From Candidatus Komeilibacteria bacterium (GTDB lineage Bacteria; Patescibacteriota; Patescibacteriia; UBA1558; 2-01-FULL-52-15), in NCBI GenBank assembly GCA_043801745.1, contig JAZDLR010000022.1, positions 1,960 to 65,959 on the forward strand: a stretch of 64,000 bases of DNA. The letters run 5' to 3'. Within the stretch, counting starts at the first letter, position 1. Each line of letters opens with the position of its first letter. Positions 1 through 11,217 of this stretch are shown here, one piece after another. The notes under the pieces were generated by a model that did no database searches, had not been told where the DNA came from, and saw nothing but the letters and a program-made list of their open reading frames with translations. The position numbers and the translations under genes were made by a program.

Positions 1-1475
1 TCAAAAGCTAACTTGTTAAGGATGTTGGTAACTCGGGCGGCGTGTTTCTGAGATACGCAAAAAACTATTGATTTTCCAAATAATGGAACATTTTGTTTCT
101 GCGCAATTGGATCGAAAAGGCCATTATCAATAAACGCCTTACACATGGCAATATTCGTTTCCTCATTGAAAAATTTTCGCTCATAATCACGGCCTTCAAA
201 TACTTCGTCAATAGCTTCACCCTCGTCAGTAGTTTTGTGCACGGCTAATCCTTGCTCGGAGAACAATTGAGTTGTGATCTCAGTTCGAGCATCGACAATA
301 ACCGGATTTACTAAGTAGCCATCTTTGACACCCGCAATTAGATCATAGCGAAATGTCGGCTCACCTGATTCACAGCCAAAGGTTTTATAGGTGCTTAATA
401 AAACCCTACGCTCATACTCTCGTTGTGTGTCAGCCCCTTCAGCATCAAATCCTTTTAGATAATCCTTTGGCGTGGCTGTCAGGCCAAGCTTATATCCAAT
501 AAAATATTCAAAGACCACACGGCTATTACCCCCGATCGAACGATGAGCTTCATCAGAAATAACCAACTCAAAATCTGTTGGCGAAAATTCCTTTCTATAC
601 CTATCACCCGCGAGAAACGTTTGGACGGTCGAAACCACAATACTGGCTGTTTGCCAGGAGTCACGATTATCTTTATAAATGACACAACGAAAATCATGTC
701 CCAGTTGTTGAACAAAGGCCTTGTGTGCCTGATCTTCTAATTCTAGTCGGTCAACTAAAAATAAAACGCGGCGAGCGTTTCCCGTTTTAAGAAATAATTT
801 GATCAACGCCGCCGAAACCAAAGTCTTGCCTGTGCCAGTAGCCATTTCAAAAAGGAATCTCTGATTACCTTGAGCCGCAGATTTCTGCAAACTTTTTATG
901 GCCTTTATCTGATATGGCCTTAGTTGCTTCAAATTATTATTGCGCAAAAACTCTGATCTAGTATTCTCGTCCTGATACGCTGGATCTTTGGCAAAGCTAG
1001 GCATCTGTGAAGCCACAATGTAATTCTCATCAACCTCTGTATCCGCTAACTCATCTGTATTGGGTACATAAGCCTCATATTGTGTTATAGATTCAGGAGT
1101 GGGGAAACGCGATATTACATCTGGGTTGCCACGATTTGTATCCCAAAAATAATGAATATTGCCGTTCGACAATATAATAAATCGAGCGTCGGTATTACGT
1201 GCATAATTTCTGGCTTGCTCTTTAGCAGAAAGTGGATCAACTGATTCTTTTTTTGCTTCGACAACCACTAAGGGTCGCCCATCTTTATCTAATAACAAAA
1301 AATCAATAAAACCGTGTTTCTCATTTTCAAAATCGTCACCTAATTCTGAATACTTAATACCCGGCTCTAACTGAATATTGGCTTTACCTTCTTTACTATC
1401 TTCAAAGCGCCAGCCCGACTCTTCAAGCAACTTATTTATCTTAATACGGGCTTTTGCTTCCTTTGGATTTGGCAT
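1..1475 (-). CDS. HsdR-like restriction R-subunit: N-terminal PD-(D/E)xK nuclease (HsdR_N-like) plus SF2 DEAD/DEAH helicase; C-terminus lies beyond window start (partial)
   Basis: Reverse frame from ATG at 1473-1475 reads MPNPKEAKARIKINKLLEESGWRF.. with GFIDFLLLD..VVVEAKK (nuclease-like), LRPYQIKAIKSL, FEMATGTGKT (Walker A), VISDEAHRS (motif II). No stop before position 1, so it is absent from the supplied ORF track. Hand translation only. Confidence 0.7.
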   Translation of the reverse strand, partial: MPNPKEAKARIKINKLLEESGWRFEDSKEGKANIQLEPGIKYSELGDDFENEKHGFIDFLLLDKDGRPLVVVEAKKESVDPLSAKEQARNYARNTDARFIILSNGNIHYFWDTNRGNPDVISRFPTPESITQYEAYVPNTDELADTEVDENYIVASQMPSFAKDPAYQDENTRSEFLRNNNLKQLRPYQIKAIKSLQKSAAQGNQRFLFEMATGTGKTLVSAALIKLFLKTGNARRVLFLVDRLELEDQAHKAFVQQLGHDFRCVIYKDNRDSWQTASIVVSTVQTFLAGDRYRKEFSPTDFELVISDEAHRSIGGNSRVVFEYFIGYKLGLTATPKDYLKGFDAEGADTQREYERRVLLSTYKTFGCESGEPTFRYDLIAGVKDGYLVNPVIVDARTEITTQLFSEQGLAVHKTTDEGEAIDEVFEGRDYERKFFNEETNIAMCKAFIDNGLFDPIAQKQNVPLFGKSIVFCVSQKHAARVTNILNKLAF

Positions 1476-1499: not shown

Positions 1500-1960
1500 C
1501 TAAATCTAGCCAATTTCTGCCCCAATCATCGCATATCCAAGAGGAAAGTTCAAGTTGGGAAGGTCGTGGTGGGCCACCTGCCTGGGTTTGAGGAAAGTGC
1601 GGCTTTCGAGCAAACCCGAAACCCTAAACACGAAACCCTAAAGAAATCCAAAACACCAAACACAAAATCCAAAACTCTTCGCCCAGCACGCCCCGCCAAA
1701 GGCGAGGCTCCGCAAATGCGGGCCGTGGGAGGCGGATCGGCTTTTATTGAATTATAAGGTGGGCGAAAACAAGTTCAAGGAGTAAGTGAAAGTGGGTTGA
1801 TGGGGCGGATGGGAGTAGATGGGGTTGGAGGGGTGATTGAAGATTGGGGCTTGGTCGTCCAGCTGAGCTGGATGAGCTCGATGGGGCTTGGGACTCGGTG
1901 CTGGGGGCTTGCCCGCTCTATTTGACAAACCCTTTTGGGTGGCATAATATATAGCCATAC
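1500..1960. repeat. Mosaic non-coding repeat module A1 upstream of the HsdR-like gene; shares blocks with 2700-3140
   Basis: Shared blocks with copy A2: tctgccccaatcatcgca.. (1516-1556 vs 2711-2751); aaggtgggcgaaaacaagttcaaggagtaagtgaaagtgggttgatggggcggatgggagtagatggggt (1756-1825 vs 2893-2962); ccagctgagct..gatggg.cttgggact (1860-1895 vs 3083-3110). Low-complexity A/C-rich tract 1617-1676. Confidence 0.7.
1517..1556 (-). promoter_or_regulatory. Conserved ~40-nt promoter-proximal element, copy 1 (about 40 nt 5' of the HsdR-like start)
   Basis: Minus-strand aacttgaactttcctcttggatatgcgatgattggggcaga contains TTGAAC then 17 nt then a weak -10-like GATGAT. A near-identical element sits at the same distance upstream of the DUF3800 gene. 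Confidence 0.35.
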
Positions 1961-2022
1961 AAGTAATTCCTCATACGTGGGCTTCCGGATGGTTGCTCAT
2001 AAACAGCGTATGGGGTTTTGTT

Positions 2023-2661
2023 TTAGCCAAAAAGTGAGCGTTCCTCTATAATCAAATCCCGGATAATCGCATAATAACTGTCGTCTCCCCGCTCGTATTT
2101 TCTGAAAACAGCCCAACAGACGAAATCGGCTACCTGCAGACATTTCTCGGCTTCCGGCGTGGCAATAATGACCTTGATGGCGCTTCTATGATTGCGGCTG
2201 ATCTGGCTTCTCAGATAATTCTGGAAATTTTCATTAAAAAATTTATTGGTTTCGCGGCGTGAAGCGATTAATTCTATGGGCTGGCCGCTGGTCACAATAT
2301 TCTGGGAATAAATTCTATCAAGCAGGATATTGGTCACGTAATTATACAGAACCTGTTTCTCGTCACGGAGCTTGGTATAAACCTTGGCTTTATCAAGATA
2401 AATAACCATAACCGAGCATTGATATTTGATTAACCGGCGCAAAACCCTCTTTCTGGTAATTGGCCGCTCCTTTACCGCATGCAAAACGCCCCGCTTTTTT
2501 CCTAAGATGCGGTGCAACTCAAAGCTGGTCTTCTGAATGATTTTCTCAATTGGCCGCTTGGAAGTAGGCACGAACAAAAAGGCAATAACAAAATATCTTG
2601 ATGAACCTTTTTTCTTGGAAAAACCCAAGTCGCCGCTTTCGTCCAGAAAAATATATGCCAT
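2023..2661 (-). CDS. DUF3800-like protein (conserved N-terminal DESG motif)
   Basis: ATG at 2659-2661 gives MAYIFLDESGDLGFSKKKGSSRYFVIAF.., the N-terminal DE motif typical of DUF3800. The track ORF extends to 2808, but that extension crosses a hairpin and the repeat, so the start is trimmed to the first ATG before the DESG motif. Confidence 0.6.
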   Translation of the reverse strand: MAYIFLDESGDLGFSKKKGSSRYFVIAFLFVPTSKRPIEKIIQKTSFELHRILGKKRGVLHAVKERPITRKRVLRRLIKYQCSVMVIYLDKAKVYTKLRDEKQVLYNYVTNILLDRIYSQNIVTSGQPIELIASRRETNKFFNENFQNYLRSQISRNHRSAIKVIIATPEAEKCLQVADFVCWAVFRKYERGDDSYYAIIRDLIIEERSLFG

Positions 2662-2678
2662 ATTTTTTAAATAAAATA

Positions 2679-2698
2679 AAACAGGGGGTTCCCTGTTT
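2679..2698 (-). promoter_or_regulatory. Perfect 8-bp stem-loop AAACAGGG-ggtt-CCCTGTTT, 17 nt upstream of the DUF3800 start
   Basis: Inverted repeat read directly. On the minus strand it is followed by TTTTATTTTATTT then ATG (terminator-like geometry immediately 5' of a start codon). Same motif at 4385-4407. Confidence 0.5.
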
Positions 2699-2699
2699 A

Positions 2700-3140
2700 A
2701 TTGACTTCTTTCTGCCCCAATCATCGCACATCTGAGGGGAATTTTCAAGTTTCTCGCCCGTCTCGCCGCATCGCGGACGAGCGGGCAAGTATCAAGTGCC
2801 TCCGCCAAAGGCGGATCGCCATTTATAGATTTTAAAGGTGGGCGAAAACACGAAACCCTTCGCCCAGAGGGCGATCGCCGTTAATAGATTTTAAAGGTGG
2901 GCGAAAACAAGTTCAAGGAGTAAGTGAAAGTGGGTTGATGGGGCGGATGGGAGTAGATGGGGTGGGAAAGCGACCATTAAGCTAAAGTTCTAAGCTCCCC
3001 GCCCGACTGCGAAGCGCAGCGAGGCGGGCGGGTAAGTTCGAAATCCTAAACAATATCGAAGTTCAAAATTCAAAGTTCAATCCAGCTGAGCTCGATGGGT
3101 CTTGGGACTTGATAGAGCCAGACAGCACCGAGTCTAAATA
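2700..3140. repeat. Mosaic non-coding repeat module A2 upstream of the DUF3800 gene
   Basis: See A1. Contains an internal ~57-bp tandem duplication (gatcgcc.tt.atagattttaaaggtgggcgaaaaca at 2812-2850 and 2869-2907) and a small inversion relative to A1 (actcggtgctg vs cagcaccgagt). Confidence 0.7.
2711..2751 (-). promoter_or_regulatory. Conserved promoter-proximal element, copy 2 (about 50 nt 5' of the DUF3800 start)
   Basis: Minus-strand aacttgaaaattcccctcagatgtgcgatgattggggcaga; about 85% identical to the 1517-1556 element. Confidence 0.35.
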
Positions 3141-3180
3141 AAAACGCCCCGAACAATTTGTTACGAGACGTTCTATTTAT

Positions 3181-3530
3181 TTGTTAACTGATCGCCAAAG
3201 CTTCTTTGATCTTTTGCACCACTACGTGGTCTTGCTCCAGTCGGGAAAGACGCTGTCTTACTTCCTGAAACTCACGCTGCATTTCCACTTTGGTTGGAAC
3301 CAGCTCGAAGCGTTTATATACCTCTTCAAATCGTTTATCCACACCGTCAAAGCCCTGCTTGATCATCAGGGCTAAATCGTCGTTGGTAACGTTATGATAA
3401 ATGTTTGGCTTAGGCATTGGGATAGGTTAAATTATTAAATTCTGGTAGTCACGTCCCCAATGGACGGGTCAAACCATATCCCTGTTTGAGTCATTCTCTC
3501 ACCTCAGAGAAAATTTGGCAACTGTTCATA
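3181..3530. repeat. Duplicated ~350-bp module (small-protein gene plus conserved leader), copy 1
   Basis: About 93% identical by eye to 5219-5570. The leader contains conserved hairpins TCAAAC-agggatatg-GTTTGA and CGTCC-attgg-GGACG on the minus strand. Confidence 0.8.
3184..3417 (-). CDS. Small 77-aa protein of unknown function (copy 1), predicted helical/coiled-coil C-terminus
   Basis: ATG at 3415-3417. MPKPNIYHNVTNDDLALMIKQGFDGVDKRFEEVYKRFELVPTKVEMQREFQEVRQRLSRLEQDHVVVQKIKEALAIS. The second intact copy is at 5222-5455 with 3 substitutions, which supports a real gene. Confidence 0.6.
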   Translation of the reverse strand: MPKPNIYHNVTNDDLALMIKQGFDGVDKRFEEVYKRFELVPTKVEMQREFQEVRQRLSRLEQDHVVVQKIKEALAIS

Positions 3531-3667
3531 AAACAACTGGCTCAGTGGATCGGGCGGGTTACTAATTTGATATATTTGTTCGTCTTGCTATGCTTACTTT
3601 GGCGCTTGGAGGGCTTGGCCCTATCACGGTCAATGTTTTCCAAACCGTAACCAAGTGCCACAAGAAC

Positions 3668-3689
3668 AGCCGAATGTCGGCTTTTTTTG
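3668..3689 (+). terminator. Rho-independent terminator-like hairpin AGCCG-aatgt-CGGCT followed by T7 on the plus strand
   Basis: Read directly. No annotated plus-strand gene upstream. Confidence 0.45.
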
Positions 3690-3707
3690 TTTATCATCAA
3701 ATACCAT

Positions 3708-3735
3708 TTGACAGCCGAAATAGGCATGCTAATAT
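3708..3735 (+). promoter_or_regulatory. Sigma70-like promoter TTGACA-16 nt-TAATAT (plus strand)
   Basis: TTGACA at 3708-3713, TAATAT at 3730-3735. Followed only by a 21-codon ORF (MKKTLIEVSLYRGLFYFLTHH) that includes the next terminator; this reads as sRNA-like. Confidence 0.4.
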
Positions 3736-3755
3736 ATAGTCATTACCATGAAAAA

Positions 3756-3798
3756 GACCCTTATAGAGGTTAGTCTCTATCGGGGGCTTTTTTATTTC
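3756..3798. terminator. Bidirectional intrinsic terminator (stem cccttatagag/ctctatcgggg; T-run on plus, and a T-run on minus after the NYN gene)
   Basis: Stem-loop plus CTTTTTTATTTCTT on the plus strand. The minus strand reads AAAAAAGCCCCCGATAGAG..CTCTATAAGGGTCTTTTT. It lies 73 nt downstream of the NYN stop. Confidence 0.55.
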
Positions 3799-3826
3799 TT
3801 GACACACCATTAGGTTGTGCTATCAT
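3799..3826 (+). promoter_or_regulatory. Sigma70-like promoter TTGACA-16 nt-TATCAT (extended -10 TGcTATCAT) directed antisense into the NYN gene 3' end
   Basis: TTGACA 3799-3804, TATCAT 3821-3826. Confidence 0.4.
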
Positions 3827-3870
3827 ATATATGAATACACATAGAAAGATACCTCTTAACGGTTCCGTCC

Positions 3871-4380
3871 TTAAGCGGTATTTTTCTTTTTATACTCAAG
3901 TTTATTTCGTAAATTATCTATAAAAGCGATCTTTTCTCTGGCTGTCCGCCTAAGCAAAGTCGAGCAAGTTTTGTAGTAAGGACTAAGAACCCGGGCCAAT
4001 TTATCAGCATTATATAGAAATTTGACAACTGAATAAAAGTCACCATCGCTGGTAATTAATATGACTTGATCAAAATTGCCTTCATAGAAATCAGTGATGA
4101 TCTGCAGAACCATGTCAGCATCAACATTCCCCTTATGATTTCCGTCTGGACCGATAATGACTGGCTTAAACTTCAAAATATATCCATCTTGCTGTAAGCG
4201 GGAATACAGATCCTGATTCTCCGGAATGTAACCAAGAAACAAATAGCATATTTTGACACCATATTTTTCCGCCAAATAGACCCGAAATTTTCGATAATCT
4301 AATTTCCAGCCCAGACTCTGGATTCCTAGATTTAGGTTCTGACCGTCAATATAGGCAAAATTATTAGCATTTTTTATCAT
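3871..4380 (-). CDS. NYN-domain (LabA/PIN-like) ribonuclease family protein
   Basis: ATG at 4378-4380. MIKNANNFAYIDGQNLNLG..KGNVDADMVL..ILITSDGDF, which are NYN/LabA-like acidic motifs. The track start at 4476 is a GTG whose extension crosses the hairpin. Confidence 0.65.
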   Translation of the reverse strand: MIKNANNFAYIDGQNLNLGIQSLGWKLDYRKFRVYLAEKYGVKICYLFLGYIPENQDLYSRLQQDGYILKFKPVIIGPDGNHKGNVDADMVLQIITDFYEGNFDQVILITSDGDFYSVVKFLYNADKLARVLSPYYKTCSTLLRRTAREKIAFIDNLRNKLEYKKKNTA

Positions 4381-4384
4381 AATA

Positions 4385-4407
4385 AAACAGGGCTTTCTTC
4401 CCTGTTT
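4385..4407 (-). promoter_or_regulatory. Stem-loop AAACAGGG-ctttctt-CCCTGTTT, 4 nt upstream of the NYN start
   Basis: Same stem sequence as 2679-2698. The left flank is also similar (attttttA..ATAA.A.AAACAGGG). Confidence 0.5.
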
Positions 4408-4481
4408 ATCTGTATCCGCATTATTGCACTTCTCCTCACAATTGGCAATATGTTCCAAAATGGAACCAGCTGCCACTCAAC

Positions 4482-5114
4482 TTAACTATCCGGAATTTCC
4501 GAATAGTTGCATTTTTTGCAACAGTTGAACACGCCGAACTCATCCCAGAGCCTATTATTCCTATCCCGCAGCCAATTTTGGGGATTCTGGCGGATATATT
4601 CCCGGATTTCAATTAGCGCATCTTCATGGCGAATGATGTGATCATAAAAAGACCGATGCCAAGCAAAATCAGGCAGGCCGGATTGATGGATTGATTTGGA
4701 GGAAATGGTTTTGAAGGCGCAGATGATTTTAGATAAAAGCATATGCTGGCGATAGATTTTATATCTTCTGCAGGCTGCGGTACGGACAACCCTAGGGTTG
4801 TCCGTACGAAATCTTTCGGACTGCCCGAAAAAATCATCTGCGCCCTGCCCCCGATCTTTTATAATTATTATTCCATGCACATGATTAGGCATAATAATGA
4901 AAGCATCTAAAGCAATATAGTGCCAGCGCCTAAGCCAAAGCCAGTTCCTCCTGGCAATCCAGCCGTATTTATTTAGCTGCATCCTGCCATTAATGACTTT
5001 ACCGAAGAAATTTTCATAATTAGCAGTATTGATCGTAATAAAATAATAGCCCGGCTGACTGTAATCATAGCCCTTAAGGCGATTGGCTTTTCTCTGGGGT
5101 AAATCAAGATACAT
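4482..5114 (-). CDS. tnpA: IS200/IS605-family (RAYT-like) HUH tyrosine transposase TnpA
   Basis: MYLDLPQRKANRLKGYDYSQPGYYFITINT..PNHVHGIIII (HUH motif), about 210 aa. The C-terminal 8 codons are encoded by a palindrome. Confidence 0.7.
   Translation of the reverse strand: MYLDLPQRKANRLKGYDYSQPGYYFITINTANYENFFGKVINGRMQLNKYGWIARRNWLWLRRWHYIALDAFIIMPNHVHGIIIIKDRGQGADDFFGQSERFRTDNPRVVRTAACRRYKIYRQHMLLSKIICAFKTISSKSIHQSGLPDFAWHRSFYDHIIRHEDALIEIREYIRQNPQNWLRDRNNRLWDEFGVFNCCKKCNYSEIPDS
4484..4508. repeat. Palindromic element AACTATCCGGAATTTCCGAATAGTT (copy 1 of 2; second copy at 9357-9381)
   Basis: Near-identical palindrome AACTATCCGAAATGTCCGGATAGTT at 9357-9381. Confidence 0.6.
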
Positions 5115-5215
5115 AAAAACAAGGATTCTTAGGTCCCTGCTTGCCCCGCCCCGCTCATAAGCGTTTCGCGCATTGAGCGGGCGGTGGTTTTCACCGCCAG
5201 AAAAGCGGCTTGTCT
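4484..5215 (-). mobile_element. Putative IS200/IS605-like element (tnpA only), bounded by subterminal hairpins; limits approximate
   Basis: Palindrome AACTATCCGGAATTTCCGAATAGTT at 4484-4508 overlaps the tnpA 3' end. Upstream hairpins CCCGCTCA..TGAGCGGG (5150-5181) and GGCGGTG-gtttt-CACCGCC (5180-5198). The ~0.7-kb size fits IS200. No TnpB. Confidence 0.35.
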
Positions 5216-5218
5216 AAC

Positions 5219-5570
5219 TTGTTAGCTGATCGCCAAAGCTTCTTTGATCTTTTGCACCACTACGTGGTCTTGCTCCAGGCGGGAAAGACGCTGTCTTACT
5301 TCCTGAAACTCACGCTGCATTTCCACTTTGGTTGGAACTAGCTCGAAGCGCTTGTATACCTCTCCAAATCGCTTATCCACACCGTCAAAGCCCTCCTTAA
5401 TCATAAGGGCTAAATCGTCGTTGGTAACGTTCTGATAAATGTTTGGCTTAGGCATTGGGATAGGTTTTAAATAATTAAATTTCGGCAGACGCGTCCCCAA
5501 TGGACGGATCAAACCATATCCCTGTTTGAACCATTTTCTCACTTCAAAGAAAGTTTGGCAATTGCTAAAT
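5219..5570. repeat. Duplicated ~350-bp module (small-protein gene plus conserved leader), copy 2
   Basis: See 3181-3530. Confidence 0.8.
5222..5455 (-). CDS. Small 77-aa protein of unknown function (copy 2)
   Basis: ATG at 5453-5455. MPKPNIYQNVTNDDLALMIKEGFDGVDKRFGEVYKRFELVPTKVEMQREFQEVRQRLSRLEQDHVVVQKIKEALAIS. The longer track ORF is an upstream extension. Confidence 0.6.
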   Translation of the reverse strand: MPKPNIYQNVTNDDLALMIKEGFDGVDKRFGEVYKRFELVPTKVEMQREFQEVRQRLSRLEQDHVVVQKIKEALAIS

Positions 5571-6457: not shown

Positions 6458-6510
6458 GAACCCGCGCTAGTATCATCCTCTGGATGAGAACGCGCGGGTT
6501 CATTTTTTTT
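6458..6510 (+). terminator. Long intrinsic terminator: GAACCCGCGC-tagta-TCATCC-tct-GGATGA-gaac-GCGCGGGTTC then T8
   Basis: 10-bp outer stem, 6-bp inner stem, T-run. Same architecture at 11148-11200. Confidence 0.7.
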
Positions 6511-6533
6511 ATTCAACAACGACTTGCCGACAT

Positions 6534-6863: not shown

Positions 6864-9311
6864 TTACAGCTTGGGATAAACGGTGAAACGTTTAGTAGTT
6901 CTCTGAAAACAACTATTAATAAAAGATACTGACAGATTGTAGGAGGAATTTTTGACATCATATTTGTGCGTGGAAGTAAAATTATTACCACTATCTAAGG
7001 CCGGATGAGTATCTACCTGCCCCCAGGCAACGATAATAGGATCAAAGTAACGCGGCCCGGTACAGCCCGGGTAAGTACCCCAATAATCCATATGGCCACT
7101 AACTGTATAGGTTGCTAGACCGTCATTAGTCTCCGTGACTGTAATACTAGGATAACGGTCACCGGTTGGAGTTGTGGGCTCGGGCGTAACTACCGGATTC
7201 ACCGGTGTCACAGGCGGTGTAACCGGAGGCGTAACAACCGGCTCTGGTTCGGGTACGATTATGGTCGGCGGAGTAACTACTGGTACATCTACTTGCGGGA
7301 TTACGGGAATAGTAATATCGGGTACAGGATTAAGCACACCACCCGGAACATCAACACTGGGATTATTGGATCCGGTGTTATTATCGAAAATATAAGACAC
7401 TGGTGGGTGTTCTTGGATAAACTTCACTCTACCGGGTATCGGAGATGCTAAAGAATTATTATTCTCATTGCTTTCCCTAATCTGTGACTGCGGCGCATCG
7501 CCCGTGCCGTCACCCACGTCAACCGTGGCCTTAAATTTGGTGGCATATTTATAGGAATCATTATTACCGCAGAAAACGTCTTTCTGCGTATAGCGCTTAT
7601 TGCGTCCCAGCGTGCCCATAGTTTCATAACATCCGCCCAAACGCTCACCGAAAATGTTATACCAATCATAAGCCACCCGACTGTTTCTACTCGTGCCTTC
7701 CGTACCTTTATTAATAATAGTTACTTCCGGATGCAGATCGCTGCCGCGGAAATTCATGCCTTCAATTTTCAGATCCGGCGCCGGTAGGTCAATCGTTTTC
7801 GAATTATTACTTTCATTAGATTCGTGAACCAAATTTGAAGCCAGAGGTTCATTGGGATCCTCTGACATATCTAAAGTAACGCGCAGTTTGACTGCTTGTT
7901 CAGCAAATTCTGCCGGACAGGCACGGGCCACGGCTGTAGATGTACGACCCACCCCAAGAGATGCGACTCCAGCTCCGGAACCACAAGTATTGATCACACG
8001 ATTGTTGCTGTCCAGCCATTCAGAAACCAAGTTAAACCTCGGCGCTGTATCAGCTCTACCAGAGTTAATGAAATTAACATTACCAATGCGTTCGCCTCGT
8101 TCATTACGGGCCAGAGAAATTGACGTTATCCGCAAATCTGACAAAGGAATGGTCACTGTCTTAGAATTATTACTTTCATTAGACTCGTGAACTAGATTTG
8201 AAGCCAAAGGTTCATTGGGATCCTCTGACATATCTAAAGTAACGCGCAGTTTAACTGCTTGTTCGGCAAATTCAGGCGGACAGGCACGGGCCACGGCTGT
8301 AGATGTACGAGCTACGCCCAGCGGCTCCACACCAGCGCCAGAACCGCAAGTATTGATCACCCGGCCGTTACTTTCTAGCCATTCTGAAACCAAATTAAAT
8401 CTTGGTGAGGTAGAAAATCTGCCGGCATTAATGAAATTAACATTACCAATGCGTTCGCCTCGTTCATTTCGGGCCAGAACAATTGACGTTATCCGCAAAT
8501 CCGGCAAGGGAATACTGACTGTTTTCGAATTATTACTTTCATTGGACTCATGAACCAGATTTGAAGACTCCGGTTCATCCGGGTTCTCAGACCTGTCCAC
8601 AATCACCCGTAACTTAACAGCTTGTTCAGCGAATTCAGCCGGACAGGCACGGGCTACAGCAGTTGAAATCTCACCAAAACCCAAAGATTCTACTGCCGCG
8701 CCAGAACCGCAAGTATTGATCACCCGGCCGTTACTATCTAGCCATTCTGAAACCAGGTTAAAAAATGAAGGCGTAGAACCACGACCGGTGTTTACTATAA
8801 TTACATTACCAATGCGTTCACCCTGACTATTGCGAGCTAAAGTAAGTGAAGATATTTTCAAATCCGGCAAAGGAATGGTCACTGTCTTGGAATTATTACT
8901 TTCATTGGACTCGTGAACCAGATTAGTAGCCAAAGGATCATCGCTCTCATCTTTATCTATCGTCACGCGCAGTTTAACTGCCCGTTCAGCAAATTCAGGC
9001 GGACAGGCCCGAGCCACAGCTGTAGTTACCCTGGCAATACCCAAGGGTTCAACCGCGGCCCCAGAATCACAAGTATTGATCACCTGGCCGTTACTATCTA
9101 ACCACTCCGACATTAAATTAAACCTCGGACCAGTGGCGGCTCGACCGGCATTAATGATTACGACATTACCGATGCGTTCAGCTTGTGAGTTACGGGCAAT
9201 AGTAATGCTAAGAACCTGCAAATCTGGCAAATTTTCTGCTGCCGCCGGCGTCAGATTAGGCACTAATAAAAAAAATACCCAGAGCAGCGCGATTAGAAGT
9301 TTATATTTCAT
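6864..9311 (-). CDS. Secreted cell-surface protein: signal peptide, 5 tandem CARDB-like repeats (~121 aa each, ..NLVHESNESNNSKT..), Pro/Thr/Val-rich linker, C-terminal Cys-containing domain
   Basis: MKYKLLIALLWVFFLLVPNLTPAAA signal peptide. Repeats LPDL.V.SI.IARN..ERIGNV..IN.GR..T.PRFNL.SEWLDSNG.VINTCGSGA.VE.LG...T.TAVARACP.EFAE.AVKLRV. A PVVTPPVTPPVTP linker. Confidence 0.6.
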   Translation of the reverse strand: MKYKLLIALLWVFFLLVPNLTPAAAENLPDLQVLSITIARNSQAERIGNVVIINAGRAATGPRFNLMSEWLDSNGQVINTCDSGAAVEPLGIARVTTAVARACPPEFAERAVKLRVTIDKDESDDPLATNLVHESNESNNSKTVTIPLPDLKISSLTLARNSQGERIGNVIIVNTGRGSTPSFFNLVSEWLDSNGRVINTCGSGAAVESLGFGEISTAVARACPAEFAEQAVKLRVIVDRSENPDEPESSNLVHESNESNNSKTVSIPLPDLRITSIVLARNERGERIGNVNFINAGRFSTSPRFNLVSEWLESNGRVINTCGSGAGVEPLGVARTSTAVARACPPEFAEQAVKLRVTLDMSEDPNEPLASNLVHESNESNNSKTVTIPLSDLRITSISLARNERGERIGNVNFINSGRADTAPRFNLVSEWLDSNNRVINTCGSGAGVASLGVGRTSTAVARACPAEFAEQAVKLRVTLDMSEDPNEPLASNLVHESNESNNSKTIDLPAPDLKIEGMNFRGSDLHPEVTIINKGTEGTSRNSRVAYDWYNIFGERLGGCYETMGTLGRNKRYTQKDVFCGNNDSYKYATKFKATVDVGDGTGDAPQSQIRESNENNNSLASPIPGRVKFIQEHPPVSYIFDNNTGSNNPSVDVPGGVLNPVPDITIPVIPQVDVPVVTPPTIIVPEPEPVVTPPVTPPVTPVNPVVTPEPTTPTGDRYPSITVTETNDGLATYTVSGHMDYWGTYPGCTGPRYFDPIIVAWGQVDTHPALDSGNNFTSTHKYDVKNSSYNLSVSFINSCFQRTTKRFTVYPKL
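7630..9230. repeat. Intragenic tandem DNA repeat, period about 363 bp, about 4.5 copies, roughly 90% inter-copy identity
   Basis: Near-identical antisense ORFs 7852-8190 and 8215-8553 lie 363 bp apart. Repeated ESNESNNSKT-encoding units. Confidence 0.8.
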
Positions 9312-11147: not shown

Positions 11148-11200
11148 GAACCCGCACTAGTATCATCCATCGGATGAGAACGTGCGGGTTCTTCTTTTTT
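11148..11200 (+). terminator. Long intrinsic terminator GAACCCGCAC-tagta-TCATCC-atc-GGATGA-gaac-GTGCGGGTTC then TTCTTTTTT
   Basis: Same design as 6458-6510, with a compensatory G:C to A:T change in the outer stem. Confidence 0.7.
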
Positions 11201-11217
11201 ACAAAAAAATATTACCC

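What the first reader, a model, noticed from the sequence alone, without database searches (positions are those of the whole stretch)
1500..3140. Two copies of a ~450-bp upstream module precede the HsdR-like and DUF3800 genes (shared promoter-proximal element plus G-tract block)
Seen in sequence: A1 (1500-1960) and A2 (2700-3140) share three ordered blocks. These are a 40-nt element 40-50 nt upstream of each start codon (TTGAA. ~17 nt gatRtgcgatgatt), a ccgccaaaggcgg palindrome, and a 70-nt block ending in G-tracts GGG-N5-GGGG-N5-GGG-N7-GGGG(-N5-GGGG). The G-tracts have G-quadruplex potential on the plus (non-coding) strand. A2 also has an internal 57-bp tandem duplication and a short inversion.

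Inference: a shared cis-regulatory leader could co-regulate both genes. Alternatively the module could be an ncRNA gene or a recombination-prone element.
Basis: seen in the sequence. Interest (0 to 1): 0.6.

Follow-up and report, generated by a model that had tools for sequence, protein, structure and literature searches.

The report
Repeats flanking an inserted DUF3800–small-RNA cassette

Summary
Observation confirmed. Window 1514-1903 (A1) and 2709-3134 (A2) share colinear blocks (43 nt at 86%, a 12-nt palindrome, 101 nt at 90% with about 70 identical bases, 23 nt at 96%). A2 also has a 59-bp internal duplication and a 12-nt inversion. The window's only two canonical G-quadruplex motifs lie in the shared block.

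The blocks occur nowhere else: not in the window, three public collections, 160 DUF3800 loci or 3 hsdR-homologue loci. They do not fold better than shuffles, match no Rfam family and show no coding remnant.

Between the copies lies an ~0.8-kb unit: the DUF3800 gene (RNase HII-like fold) and a convergent ~67-nt small RNA gene (1958-2024, +) with a consensus promoter, covarying stems and a U-run abutting the DUF3800 stop. Its 23-nt loop is exact in at least 154 loci from several phyla, nearly always beside a DUF3800 orthologue. No Rfam family matches it.

In about a third of loci the unit is bracketed by locus-specific direct repeats, such as 5' ends of murD or radC-like genes, promoters or terminators. 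A1/A2 is the longest example.

Best reading: a duplication scar of cassette insertion that incidentally gives DUF3800 a copy of hsdR's promoter-like elements. RNA function and insertion mechanism are inferred.

The parts
3..1475 (-). N-terminal 491 codons of an hsdR-like helicase/restriction subunit. The gene runs off the window start.
   Evidence: Pfam ResIII E 7.5e-38, plus HSDR_N_2 and HSDR_N. PADLOC REase_I E 1e-51. Homologues of about 853 aa at 78-83% identity in candidate phyla radiation (CPR) bacteria.
1514..1903 (.). A1: the downstream copy of the long direct repeat. It is the native-looking upstream region of the hsdR-like gene.
   Evidence: Colinear blastn matches to A2: 101 nt at 90%, 43 nt at 86%, 23 nt at 96%. 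No other copy in the window.
1525..1553 (-). Proximal promoter-like site of A1. The -35 TTGAAC is at 1553-1548, followed by a 17-nt spacer, then TG-C-GATGAT at 1530-1525. The repeat ends at 1514, close to the expected transcription start.
   Evidence: Read from the sequence. The A2 twin was scored by the scan. A consensus match only; not evidence of function.
1612..1675 (.). Degenerate 7-nt repeats (AAACCCG/CAAAACA). They are expanded in A1, while A2 has a single 14-nt unit at 2846-2859.
   Evidence: Tandem Repeats Finder (TRF); repeat family D4.
1751..1778 (-). Distal promoter-like site inside the identical core block (TTGAAC-N16-TATAAT, 10 of 12).
   Evidence: The twin in A2 is at 2916-2888 (TTGAAC-N17-TAAAAT).
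1794..1824 (+). Canonical G-quadruplex motif in A1, lying just upstream of the distal promoter-like site.
   Evidence: Regex and G4Hunter score of 1.9.
1922..1950 (+). Promoter of the small RNA gene (TTGACA-N17-TAATAT).
   Evidence: A -35/-10 pair is kept at the same distance from the RNA in most of the 41 loci listed, with unrelated spacer sequence.
1958..2024 (+). DUF3800-associated small RNA, convergent with the DUF3800 gene. It has stems P1 and P2, an invariant internal loop and a U-run. The U-run overlaps the DUF3800 stop codon by 2 nt.
   Evidence: Covariance model R1: 92.9 bits, E 6e-24, the only hit in the window. On 62 sequences, 99.4% of cells are paired, 5 pairs show compensatory changes, and 0 of 500 shuffles reach this. 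RNAalifold agrees. Fold z-score -3.4. No Rfam match at E up to 10.
2023..2661 (-). DUF3800 gene (212 aa), RNase HII-like fold. Carries D7-E8 and Q176-x-x-D179.
   Evidence: Pfam DUF3800 E 6.7e-15. Translation. Invariant D7, E8 and Q176, and near-invariant D179, in 40 homologues. AlphaFold model pLDDT 88, pTM 0.87. Best PDB match is RNase HII 1EKE, E 1.8e-6, probability 1.0.
2662..2708 (-). Cassette-specific 5' leader of DUF3800. It contains a hairpin plus U-run (2698-2679) and has no counterpart in A1.
   Evidence: Fold z-score -2.8.
2709..3134 (.). A2: the upstream copy of the long direct repeat. It includes the proximal promoter-like site (2748-2720), the palindrome (2802-2813), a 59-bp internal duplication (2805-2850 / 2864-2909), the core block (2867-2967), the distal block (3081-3109) and an inverted 12-mer (3123-3134).
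2932..2962 (+). Canonical G-quadruplex motif in A2, a copy of the one in A1.
3140..3175 (-). Terminator-like hairpin plus U-run of the 77-aa gene. It marks the upstream limit of the intergenic region that was duplicated.
   Evidence: Sequence read. Weak terminator-type Rfam alignments at this position.
3181..3524 (.). B1: the downstream copy of a second long direct repeat. It holds the promoter-like site plus the whole 77-aa gene (3184-3417, minus strand).
   Evidence: 96% and 86% identity to 5219-5564.
3525..5218 (.). Second bracketed segment. It holds small RNA genes U2 (3739-3796, +) and U3 (3833-3890, +), an NYN nuclease gene (3871-4476, -) and a REP-associated tyrosine transposase (RAYT)-like gene (4482-5114, -).
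   Evidence: Pfam NYN E 8.6e-13. PADLOC NYN. NCBIfam REP-associated tyrosine transposase E 3.4e-13, below the curated cut-off. Covariance model R2: 73 and 63 bits. Fold z-scores -4.0 and -4.7.
5219..5564 (.). B2: the upstream copy of the second direct repeat.

Best explanation
**What the two modules are.** A1 and A2 are the two diverged copies of one ~400-bp stretch: the intergenic region upstream of the hsdR-like gene. This stretch became duplicated when an ~0.8-kb cassette (window ~1904-2708) was placed about 40 nt upstream of the hsdR start.

**What the cassette holds.** It has a DUF3800 gene and a convergent small RNA gene.
- The DUF3800 protein is an RNase HII-like enzyme with an intact acidic motif.
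- The small RNA gene has its own near-consensus promoter and terminator.
- The cassette has no convincing promoter for DUF3800.

**Consequence of the duplication.** The upstream repeat copy (A2) places the same two promoter-like elements that precede hsdR in front of DUF3800. The two genes therefore probably respond to the same signals. This is a by-product of how the cassette sits in the genome, not a dedicated regulatory module. The G-tract block, the palindrome and the heptamer repeats are passengers of the duplicated target DNA. The G-tracts lie at about -40 to -85 of the distal promoter-like site and could modulate it, but nothing here shows that they do.

**How the cassette probably works (inferred).**
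- DUF3800 mRNA has no terminator of its own before the sRNA gene, so its 3' end should be complementary to the abundant sRNA.
- The RNA's loop is invariant across phyla, which suggests the RNA is also bound by a conserved partner, most simply the DUF3800 protein.
- I therefore favour a toxin/antitoxin-like or effector/RNA-cofactor pair of the kind found in defence islands. I do not favour a riboswitch or leader.

**What is shown and what is inferred.**
- Shown: the repeats, the cassette limits, the RNA's conservation and covariation, its linkage to DUF3800, and the recurrence of flanking direct repeats.
- Inferred: the insertion event itself, promoter activity, and the RNA's function.
For: **Repeat structure and cassette limits in the window**
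- The repeat ends 11 nt after the proximal -10 hexamer in both copies. The 38-47 nt between it and each ATG are unrelated.

**The conserved unit ends at the DUF3800 start and at the sRNA promoter**
- Sequences upstream of DUF3800 differ completely between loci.
- The sRNA stays 81-93% identical next to proteins that are only 50-64% identical.

**The sRNA**
- Its exact 23-nt loop was found in 34 species genomes and in at least 120 metagenome contigs.
- 121 of 147 assessable loci have a DUF3800 orthologue ending within 80 nt of it.
- All 17 loci reached from the protein side (5 proteins) carry the RNA.

**Recurrent flanking direct repeats**
- 18 of 68 non-identical loci have them, against 6 of 203 shuffled locus pairs.
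- Within 2.5 kb, 19 of 56 loci have direct flank repeats and 6 of 56 have inverted ones.
- The repeat content is locus-specific, and one copy is often a truncated gene piece. Examples: murD start plus 14 codons (L024), radC-like start (L013, L105), helicase start (L016), GtrA-like start (L106), hsdM-like 3' end (L126), a mazG-like promoter ending at its expected transcription start (L010), and terminator hairpins (L062, L127).

**A second example in this window**
- The repeat pair B1/B2 brackets the NYN + sRNA + RAYT-like segment. It runs from a promoter-like -35 to just past a stop codon.

**The A blocks are unique and show no sign of RNA or coding function**
-.

**Support for the RNA/protein pairing**
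- Intact sRNA genes sit next to deletion remnants of DUF3800 in L031, L089, L035, L041, L051, L123 and L047.
- The DUF3800 fold is RNase HII-like.
- The literature reports the DUF3800-ncRNA association and the RNase H-like fold (PMC5737381, PMC7736814, PMC10910872).
Against: - No empty site (the same locus without the cassette) was found, so insertion is inferred from architecture alone. The closest hsdR homologues are only 83% identical and have unrelated upstream DNA.
- Two thirds of the loci show no flanking repeat.
- Repeat lengths vary from 18 to about 400 nt, and their distance from the conserved unit varies from 0 to about 350 nt. No single enzymatic mechanism is implied, and some repeats could have other origins, such as tandem paralogue arrays as in L001.
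- A1 and A2 differ by several indels, yet share about 70 identical bases. This could mean selection or gene conversion on that block rather than neutral decay.
- Promoter calls are consensus matches only. A terminator-like hairpin lies between the proximal promoter-like site and the DUF3800 start.
- The sRNA loci were ascertained with an exact 23-mer, so invariance of that stretch within the set is by construction.
- Taxon labels come from metagenome-assembled genome (MAG) records and may include mis-binned contigs.
Confidence: 0.65

Rival explanations
1. The module is a selected, shared cis-regulatory region. The promoters plus a G-quadruplex or protein-binding block are kept in two copies so that the restriction subunit and DUF3800 are co-regulated. 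The identity of the 70-nt block reflects purifying selection.
For: - Both copies keep two promoter-like sites in the same order.
- About 70 nt are identical while the neighbouring blocks are 86-90% identical.
- The window's only two canonical G4 motifs lie directly upstream of the distal promoter-like site.
- In L001, a 64-nt upstream element is 98% identical in front of two successive genes.
Against: - Nothing similar lies upstream of DUF3800 orthologues in 160 loci or of hsdR homologues in 3 loci.
- In other genomes the equivalent repeats are truncated gene pieces or terminators, which cannot be regulatory modules.
- The two G4 motifs are one duplicated event, and shuffles give 0.4 per window.
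- This reading is compatible with, rather than opposed to, an origin by duplication.
Confidence: 0.17
2. The modules are copies of a small non-autonomous mobile element (MITE- or REP-like), perhaps moved by the RAYT-like protein encoded at 4482-5114.
For: - A RAYT-like gene lies 1.3 kb away.
- The modules contain short GC-rich palindromes.
Against: - There are only two copies, both at this locus, in 64 kb.
- There are no terminal inverted repeats. The only inverted pairs are 12 nt long.
- The core 23-mer gave no hit in 185,579 species genomes, in the metagenome collection or in viral contigs.
- The copies differ by large indels.
Confidence: 0.05
3. The shared blocks encode a structured RNA: a long 5' leader, a riboswitch-like element or a divergent ncRNA.
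For: - The distal promoter-like site could give a 230-275-nt leader.
- A terminator-like hairpin follows it in A2, at 2872-2855.
Against: - Fold energies of the shared block are indistinguishable from shuffles on both strands.
- There are no Rfam matches beyond noise.
- No homologous sequence exists elsewhere to show covariation.
Confidence: 0.06
4. The modules are remnants of a degraded protein-coding gene.
For: - ORFs of 42-68 codons cross the blocks.
- The 68-codon ORF had one hit at E 6e-9.
Against: - That hit is a 601-aa repeat protein matched in five short stretches at 30% identity. This is a repeat-driven match.
- No Pfam family scored below E 0.01 for six ORFs.
- The ORF is broken in A2.
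Confidence: 0.03

Closest known systems
DUF3800-associated RNA motifs (DUF3800-I to -XI; Weinberg et al. 2017, PMC5737381)
   Same: It is a conserved, structured small RNA with a terminator at its 3' end, encoded next to a DUF3800 gene and not in its 5' UTR. UAA-containing loops recur (GUAAAU occurs twice), which the authors noted. Its function is unknown.
   Different: No Rfam 15 family matches it, even at E up to 10. Meanwhile DUF3800-IX was detected elsewhere in the same loci, which serves as a positive control. I could not read the paper's supplementary files, so identity with one of the motifs not deposited in Rfam cannot be excluded. Its strictly convergent, stop-codon-abutting position and its spread in CPR bacteria are specific to it.
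Type I toxin-antitoxin pairs with convergent antisense RNA (txpA/RatA and bsrG/SR4 of Bacillus subtilis; from general knowledge)
   Same: A strongly promoted small RNA is transcribed towards the 3' end of the partner gene, so the mRNA tail should pair with it. Orphan RNA genes survive loss of the protein gene.
   Different: The partner is a 212-aa RNase HII-like enzyme, not a small membrane peptide. The RNA's loop is invariant across phyla, which simple antisense pairing does not require.
Type III toxin-antitoxin systems (ToxIN, AbiF-like; RNA antitoxin bound by a nuclease toxin)
   Same: A nuclease-fold protein is paired with a structured RNA in defence-island contexts. Sequence conservation of the RNA fits recognition by the protein.
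   Different: The RNA is a single hairpin unit on the opposite strand, downstream of the gene. It is not an array of tandem repeats upstream on the same strand.
Integrated elements flanked by att-type direct repeats, and Campbell-type single-crossover insertions
   Same: Direct repeats of target sequence bracket the inserted unit. One copy of a target gene end is often truncated while the gene itself stays intact. A tyrosine integrase lies next to the sRNA in a subset of loci.
   Different: The repeats have no common core, differ in length from 18 to about 400 nt, and differ in sequence at every locus. No integrase lies in this part of the window.
Retron type VII and Cas12a2-linked DUF3800 proteins (PMC7736814, PMC10910872)
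   Same: A DUF3800 domain with an RNase H-like fold works alongside a dedicated non-coding RNA in a defence setting.
   Different: No reverse transcriptase or Cas gene lies next to the cassette. The protein is a stand-alone 212-aa domain.

Membership tests
DUF3800-associated RNA motifs (Weinberg 2017) | Conserved secondary structure supported by covariation | tested here: met
   18 pairs, 99.4% of cells paired. 5 pairs show compensatory change, for example AU:28 against GC:26 at the P1 closing pair. 0 of 500 shuffles reach this, and slid controls give 28-57% paired.
DUF3800-associated RNA motifs (Weinberg 2017) | Encoded next to a DUF3800 gene | tested here: met
   121 of 147 assessable loci. 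All 17 protein-ascertained loci.
DUF3800-associated RNA motifs (Weinberg 2017) | Matches one of the published motif models (Rfam DUF3800-I, -IX and others) | tested here: not met
   No Rfam family matched at E up to 10 on 1476-2060, nor at gathering score on 17 loci. DUF3800-IX was found elsewhere in L010. Motifs absent from Rfam could not be checked.
Bacterial small RNA gene (promoter, structured body, intrinsic terminator) | Sigma-70-type promoter at a fixed distance, and a stem followed by a U-run | tested here: met
   TTGACA-N17-TAATAT at 1922-1950. A promoter is kept in position in most of the listed loci, with unrelated spacers. GGUUUUG(Y)UUU follows P1/P2 in nearly all the sequences. 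Transcription itself was not tested.
Type I toxin-antitoxin system | Toxin is a small hydrophobic peptide | tested here: not met
   The partner is a 212-aa soluble RNase HII-like protein.
Type III toxin-antitoxin system | Antitoxin is an array of tandem RNA repeats upstream of the toxin gene on the same strand | tested here: not met
   There is a single unit, on the opposite strand, downstream of the gene. No tandem array was found.
Toxin-antitoxin systems in general | Protein is toxic and the RNA neutralises it | not testable with these tools
   The only indirect hint is orphan sRNA genes beside DUF3800 deletion remnants.
MITE / REP-type dispersed repeat (for A1/A2) | Many dispersed copies with terminal inverted repeats and short target duplications | tested here: not met
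   Two copies only, both at this locus. No terminal inverted repeats. Absent from three public collections.
Canonical G-quadruplex motif | Four runs of at least 3 G separated by loops of 1-7 nt | tested here: met
   1794-1824 and 2932-2962 on the plus strand. G4Hunter scores 1.9-1.96. Folding in vitro or in vivo was not tested.
Transposon-type target-site duplication | Short duplication of fixed length directly abutting defined element ends | tested here: not met
   Lengths range from 18 to about 400 nt. Offsets from the conserved unit are 0-139 nt on one side and 0-350 nt on the other.
Integron gene cassette with attC site | Integron integrase and attI nearby; a structured but sequence-variable attC downstream of each ORF | tested here: not met
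   No integrase lies in this part of the window. The element downstream of the ORF is nearly invariant in sequence and has its own promoter and U-run, which fits an RNA gene.
RNase H-like superfamily (for the DUF3800 protein) | RNase H fold with conserved acidic residues | tested here: met
   Model pLDDT 88. Best PDB matches are RNase HII 1EKE and 3P83, E 1.8e-6 to 5e-4, TM about 0.5. D7, E8 and Q176 are invariant and D179 nearly invariant. Catalysis was not tested.

The most novel reading that the evidence does not exclude
The DUF3800 + small-RNA unit, and the analogous NYN + small-RNA unit next to it, would be a self-spreading cassette whose own RNase H-like protein and RNA take part in insertion. 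Insertion would occur at transcription-start or 5' regions of host genes and would create unusually long target duplications of about 40-400 bp. These duplications would hand the promoterless cassette a copy of the host promoter while keeping the host gene intact.
Probability: 0.12. Interest if true: 0.85.

Novelty: new variant of a known kind. Interest (0 to 1): 0.6.

Why it matters
**A long-standing puzzle.** DUF3800 proteins are a widespread RNase H-like family. Their constant company of unrelated structured RNAs has been unexplained since 2017.

**What this locus adds.**
- A very widespread RNA partner that no Rfam family matches. Its 23-nt loop is exact in at least 154 loci from CPR bacteria and from MAGs labelled Actinomycetota, Desulfobacterota, Omnitrophota, Bacteroidota and others.
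- A fixed convergent geometry with the protein gene.
- Orphan RNA genes left behind after loss of the protein gene.
- Evidence that protein gene and RNA gene travel as one small cassette that is often bracketed by duplicated target DNA.

**Testable ideas that follow.**
- The protein and RNA may act as a toxin and RNA antidote, or as an RNA-protein effector.
- The cassette's mode of spread can be studied from its flanking repeats.

**For genome annotation.** Long "regulatory repeats" in front of neighbouring defence genes can be insertion scars rather than dedicated control elements.

Tried and rejected
- **Cyanobacterial repeat idea.** GGCGATCGCC and CCCCAAT-like heptamers suggested HIP1/STRR repeats. 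GCGATCGC occurs once in 64 kb against 0.8 expected, and the organism is a Candidatus Komeilibacteria MAG. Rejected.
- **Rfam.** I searched the whole window at gathering score, three sub-regions at E up to 5-10, and 17 related loci. Nothing matched the modules or the small RNAs.
- **Diversity-generating retroelement.** The mismatches between copies are not adenine-specific and no reverse transcriptase gene was seen nearby. Rejected.
- **Search for the module elsewhere.**
  - The exact 23-mer of the module core gave 0 hits in genome, metagenome and viral collections.
  - The promoter-proximal 20-mer gave 0 hits in viral contigs.
- **Looking up window proteins by exact sequence.** This failed four times. 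The contig is not in that index, although the DUF3800 protein is in the protein collection.
- **Search for an empty site through hsdR homologues.** The best is 83% identical, and the upstream DNA is unrelated.
- **Coding-remnant test.** Negative.
- **Second small-RNA family (U2/U3).** A covariance model found no members beyond its seeds in 163 loci.
- **Supplementary text of Weinberg 2017.** Not held in the library.


Full report
**1. Setting**

The window is a chromosomal contig of a Candidatus Komeilibacteria bacterium, a member of the candidate phyla radiation (CPR, Patescibacteria). The DUF3800 ORF is 100% identical to an NCBI MAG protein of that name.

All genes in the first 5.5 kb lie on the minus strand:
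- an hsdR-like helicase/restriction subunit (3-1475);
- DUF3800 (2023-2661);
- a 77-aa ORF (3184-3417);
- an NYN nuclease (3871-4476);
- a REP-associated tyrosine transposase (RAYT)-like protein (4482-5114);
- a second copy of the 77-aa ORF (5222-5455).

The reported modules are the intergenic regions upstream of the hsdR-like gene (1476-2022) and of DUF3800 (2662-3183).

**2.

Repeat finding, pairwise alignment and blastn give colinear shared blocks:
- 1514-1556 with 2709-2751: 43 nt, 86%;
- the 12-nt CCGCCAAAGGCG;
- 1729-1829 with 2867-2967: 101 nt, 90%, E 1e-36, about 70 identical bases;
- 1858-1895 with 3081-3109: 94-96%.

A2 carries a 59-bp internal duplication and a 12-nt inverted piece.

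The G-tract pattern is exactly as described. These are the only two canonical G-quadruplex motifs in the 64-kb window, where shuffles give a mean of 0.4. They are copies of each other, so they count as one event.

**3. What the shared blocks are not**

- **Not a dispersed repeat.** They do not occur elsewhere in the window. The core 23-mer is absent from 185,579 species genomes, from the JGI metagenome collection and from IMG/VR.
- **Not conserved with the genes.** They have no similarity to 160 loci that carry DUF3800 orthologues, or to three loci with hsdR homologues.
- **Not a structured RNA.** They do not fold better than shuffled sequence on either strand: z-scores are -1.2, +0.4, -0.1 and -1.95. 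They match no Rfam family.
- **Not a coding remnant.**

On the gene strand, each copy does contain two promoter-like sites in the same order:
- a distal site, TTGAAC-N16/17-TATAAT/TAAAAT, inside the identical block, with the C-rich (G-tract) stretch just upstream of it;
- a proximal site, TTGAAM-N17-GATGAT, with a TG extension.

**4. What lies between the copies**

Blastn of the intergenic regions against loci of DUF3800 homologues gave an unexpected result. Window 1938-2022, immediately 3' of DUF3800, is 81-93% identical to the DNA 3' of homologues whose proteins are only about 63% identical.

This stretch is a small RNA gene on the plus strand:
- a near-consensus promoter, TTGACA-N17-TAATAT, at 1922-1950;
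- a ~67-nt body;
- a U-run whose last two bases overlap the DUF3800 stop codon.

It does not occur in viral contigs. Most of the genomes are CPR lineages. Others are MAGs labelled Actinomycetota, Desulfobacterota, Omnitrophota, Bacteroidota, Victivallis and Pseudomonadales.

*Structure.* I aligned 62 distinct sequences.
- The two stems are 99% paired, and five pairs show compensatory changes. No shuffle and no slid control comes close. RNAalifold finds the same fold.
- Three different optional hairpins are inserted at one loop position.
- A promoter is kept at the same distance in most listed loci, with unrelated spacers.
- A covariance model finds exactly one copy in the window (92.9 bits, 1958-2024) and one per related locus.

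*Relation to Rfam.* No Rfam 15 family matches it, even at E up to 10. Rfam's DUF3800-IX was detected elsewhere in one of the same loci, which shows the search works for that class.

**5. Linkage to DUF3800**

- Of 147 assessable loci, 121 have a DUF3800 orthologue (50-64% identity) ending within 80 nt of the loop. It is always convergent with the RNA.
- All 17 loci reached from the protein side (five different proteins) have the RNA.
- Several of the 26 exceptions are intact RNA genes next to deletion remnants of DUF3800, with only the first and last few codons left. Others have a tyrosine integrase or an AbiEii-like gene at that position.

The protein keeps the family's DE and QxxD motifs. 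It models confidently (pLDDT 88) as an RNase HII-like fold: best PDB match 1EKE, E 1.8e-6. This agrees with published predictions (PMC7736814, PMC10910872).

Weinberg et al. (PMC5737381) described 11 unrelated RNA motifs next to DUF3800 genes, several with terminators. Their function is unknown. This RNA belongs to that phenomenon.

**6. The cassette and its flanks**

Sequences upstream of the DUF3800 start are unrelated between loci. The conserved unit therefore runs from the start codon region to the sRNA promoter, about 0.8 kb.

*Frequency of flank repeats.*
- In 18 of 68 non-identical loci, the DNA just upstream of DUF3800 is repeated, in direct orientation, just beyond the sRNA promoter. 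In shuffled locus pairs this happens in 6 of 203.
- Within 2.5 kb, 19 of 56 loci have direct flank repeats and 6 of 56 have inverted ones.

*Content of the repeats.* They are locus-specific, and one copy is often a truncated piece of a neighbouring gene:
- the murD start with 14 codons, ending in a stop directly before the DUF3800 ATG (L024);
- a radC-like start (L013, L105);
- a helicase start (L016);
- a GtrA-like start (L106);
- an RHH-like gene start (L149);
- an NYN gene's upstream region (L067);
- the 3' end of an hsdM-like gene (L126);
- a mazG-like promoter that ends at its expected transcription start (L010);
- terminator hairpins (L062, L127).

Such scars cannot be regulatory modules. 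They are duplications of whatever lay at the insertion point.

*The window.* Window A1/A2 has the same geometry. The repeat begins 18 nt beyond the sRNA -35 (1903) and ends 11 nt after the proximal -10 (1514 and 2709). The cassette brings its own 47-nt leader. At about 400 bp, this is the longest example seen.

*A second case 0.4 kb away.* The repeat pair B1 (3181-3524) and B2 (5219-5564) runs from a promoter-like -35 to 6 nt past the stop of the 77-aa gene. It brackets a segment with the RAYT-like gene, the NYN gene and two more small RNA genes convergent with NYN. In L128 a NYN-sRNA pair and a DUF3800-sRNA pair sit side by side between two copies of a 134-aa gene.

**7. Mechanism**

*Shown.*
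- The repeats and the cassette limits.
- A structured, highly conserved RNA gene tied to an RNase HII-like gene.
- Recurrent direct repeats of target DNA around the pair.
- Presence of the pair in many lineages and in defence-type neighbourhoods: restriction-modification, MazE, SMODS and AbiEii genes.

*Inferred.*
- The pair was inserted upstream of hsdR with a duplication of the target region. Alternatively, it integrated by a single crossover carrying a homologous stretch.
- Because the cassette lacks a clear promoter for DUF3800, the upstream repeat copy supplies one. DUF3800 and hsdR would then share control signals.
- For the pair itself, I favour an RNA that holds the nuclease in check or serves as its cofactor:
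  - the geometry predicts a ~65-bp duplex between the sRNA and the DUF3800 mRNA tail, as in convergent type I toxin-antitoxin pairs;
  - the invariant loop argues for recognition by a conserved protein;
  - orphan RNA genes survive loss of the protein gene.
- It is not a member of type I systems, because the protein is not a small peptide. It is not a member of type III systems, because there is no tandem repeat array on the same strand.

*Unknown.* How the duplications arise. Their variable length and offset fit neither a classical transposase nor a site-specific integrase with a fixed core.

**8. Verdict**

- co-regulation is a plausible side effect;
- "recombination-prone element" is near the mark;
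- the ncRNA is real, but it is not in the shared blocks.

The G-quadruplex potential is real on paper, but it is a single duplicated occurrence with no comparative support.

The more interesting content of the interval is the DUF3800-small-RNA cassette and its repeat-bracketed architecture. This is a new variant within the known but unexplained association of DUF3800 genes with structured RNAs.

Noticed in passing
window 3708-3896 (+); also L128, L114, L084, L045, L159, L005, L071: There are two more small RNA genes: U2 (RNA 3739-3796) and U3 (RNA 3833-3890). Each has a near-consensus promoter, a hairpin with compensatory changes between loci, a shared loop GGUUnCGUCC and a U-run. U3's U-run abuts the stop of the NYN nuclease gene. 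The same RNA family is convergent with a 160-aa NYN gene in L128-type loci. No Rfam match.
   Followed up: partly
window 3181-3524 and 5219-5564: A second long direct repeat (96% and 86% identity) contains a promoter-like site and the complete 77-aa gene. It brackets the RAYT-like gene, the NYN gene and the U2 and U3 RNA genes. The architecture is the same as A1/A2 around DUF3800.
   Followed up: partly
L015, L019, L025, L029, L032, L040 and others (next to the sRNA -35): A perfect DnaA box (TTATCCACA) lies 50-70 nt beyond the sRNA loop, in either orientation, in 31 of 120 unique loci. None occurs in a control stretch 300-400 nt away. It is absent from the window copy.
   Followed up: partly
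L068, L069, L088, L116, L139, L153, L092, L052; remnant in L008-type loci: A tyrosine integrase gene ends about 50 nt from the sRNA loop, convergent with the RNA and in the place of DUF3800. In L008-type loci the integrase C-terminus directly precedes DUF3800. The sRNA gene might serve as an integration site, or the integrase might move the cassette.
   Followed up: no
L031, L089, L035, L041, L051, L123, L047: Intact sRNA genes lie next to DUF3800 deletion remnants, where only the first ~8 and/or last few codons are left.
   Followed up: partly
L169/L172 versus L170/L171/L173: Identical DUF3800 protein and sRNA, with the same upstream gene (SpoU methylase), but two different downstream contexts: a type III restriction-modification methylase, or radC-like plus DUF5655. 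Similarity breaks shortly after a duplicated radC-like 5' fragment.
   Followed up: partly
L010 1052-1120: Rfam DUF3800-IX RNA (50 bits) lies next to a second, divergent DUF3800 gene in the same locus as the new sRNA. Two different DUF3800-RNA pairs can therefore co-reside.
   Followed up: no
window 2679-2698 (-): A terminator-like hairpin plus U-run sits inside the 47-nt leader, 17 nt before the DUF3800 start codon (fold z-score -2.8). A comparable hairpin precedes the start codons in L001. Whether it attenuates transcription or affects translation is unknown.
   Followed up: no
window 6458-6511 and 11148-11201: Two 54-nt copies (87% identity) of a GC-rich hairpin followed by a T-run, probably related intrinsic terminators.
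   Followed up: no
window 7795-9180: Four tandem ~363-nt repeats (60-85% identity) lie inside the 815-aa CARDB-domain protein gene (6864-9311, minus strand).
   Followed up: no
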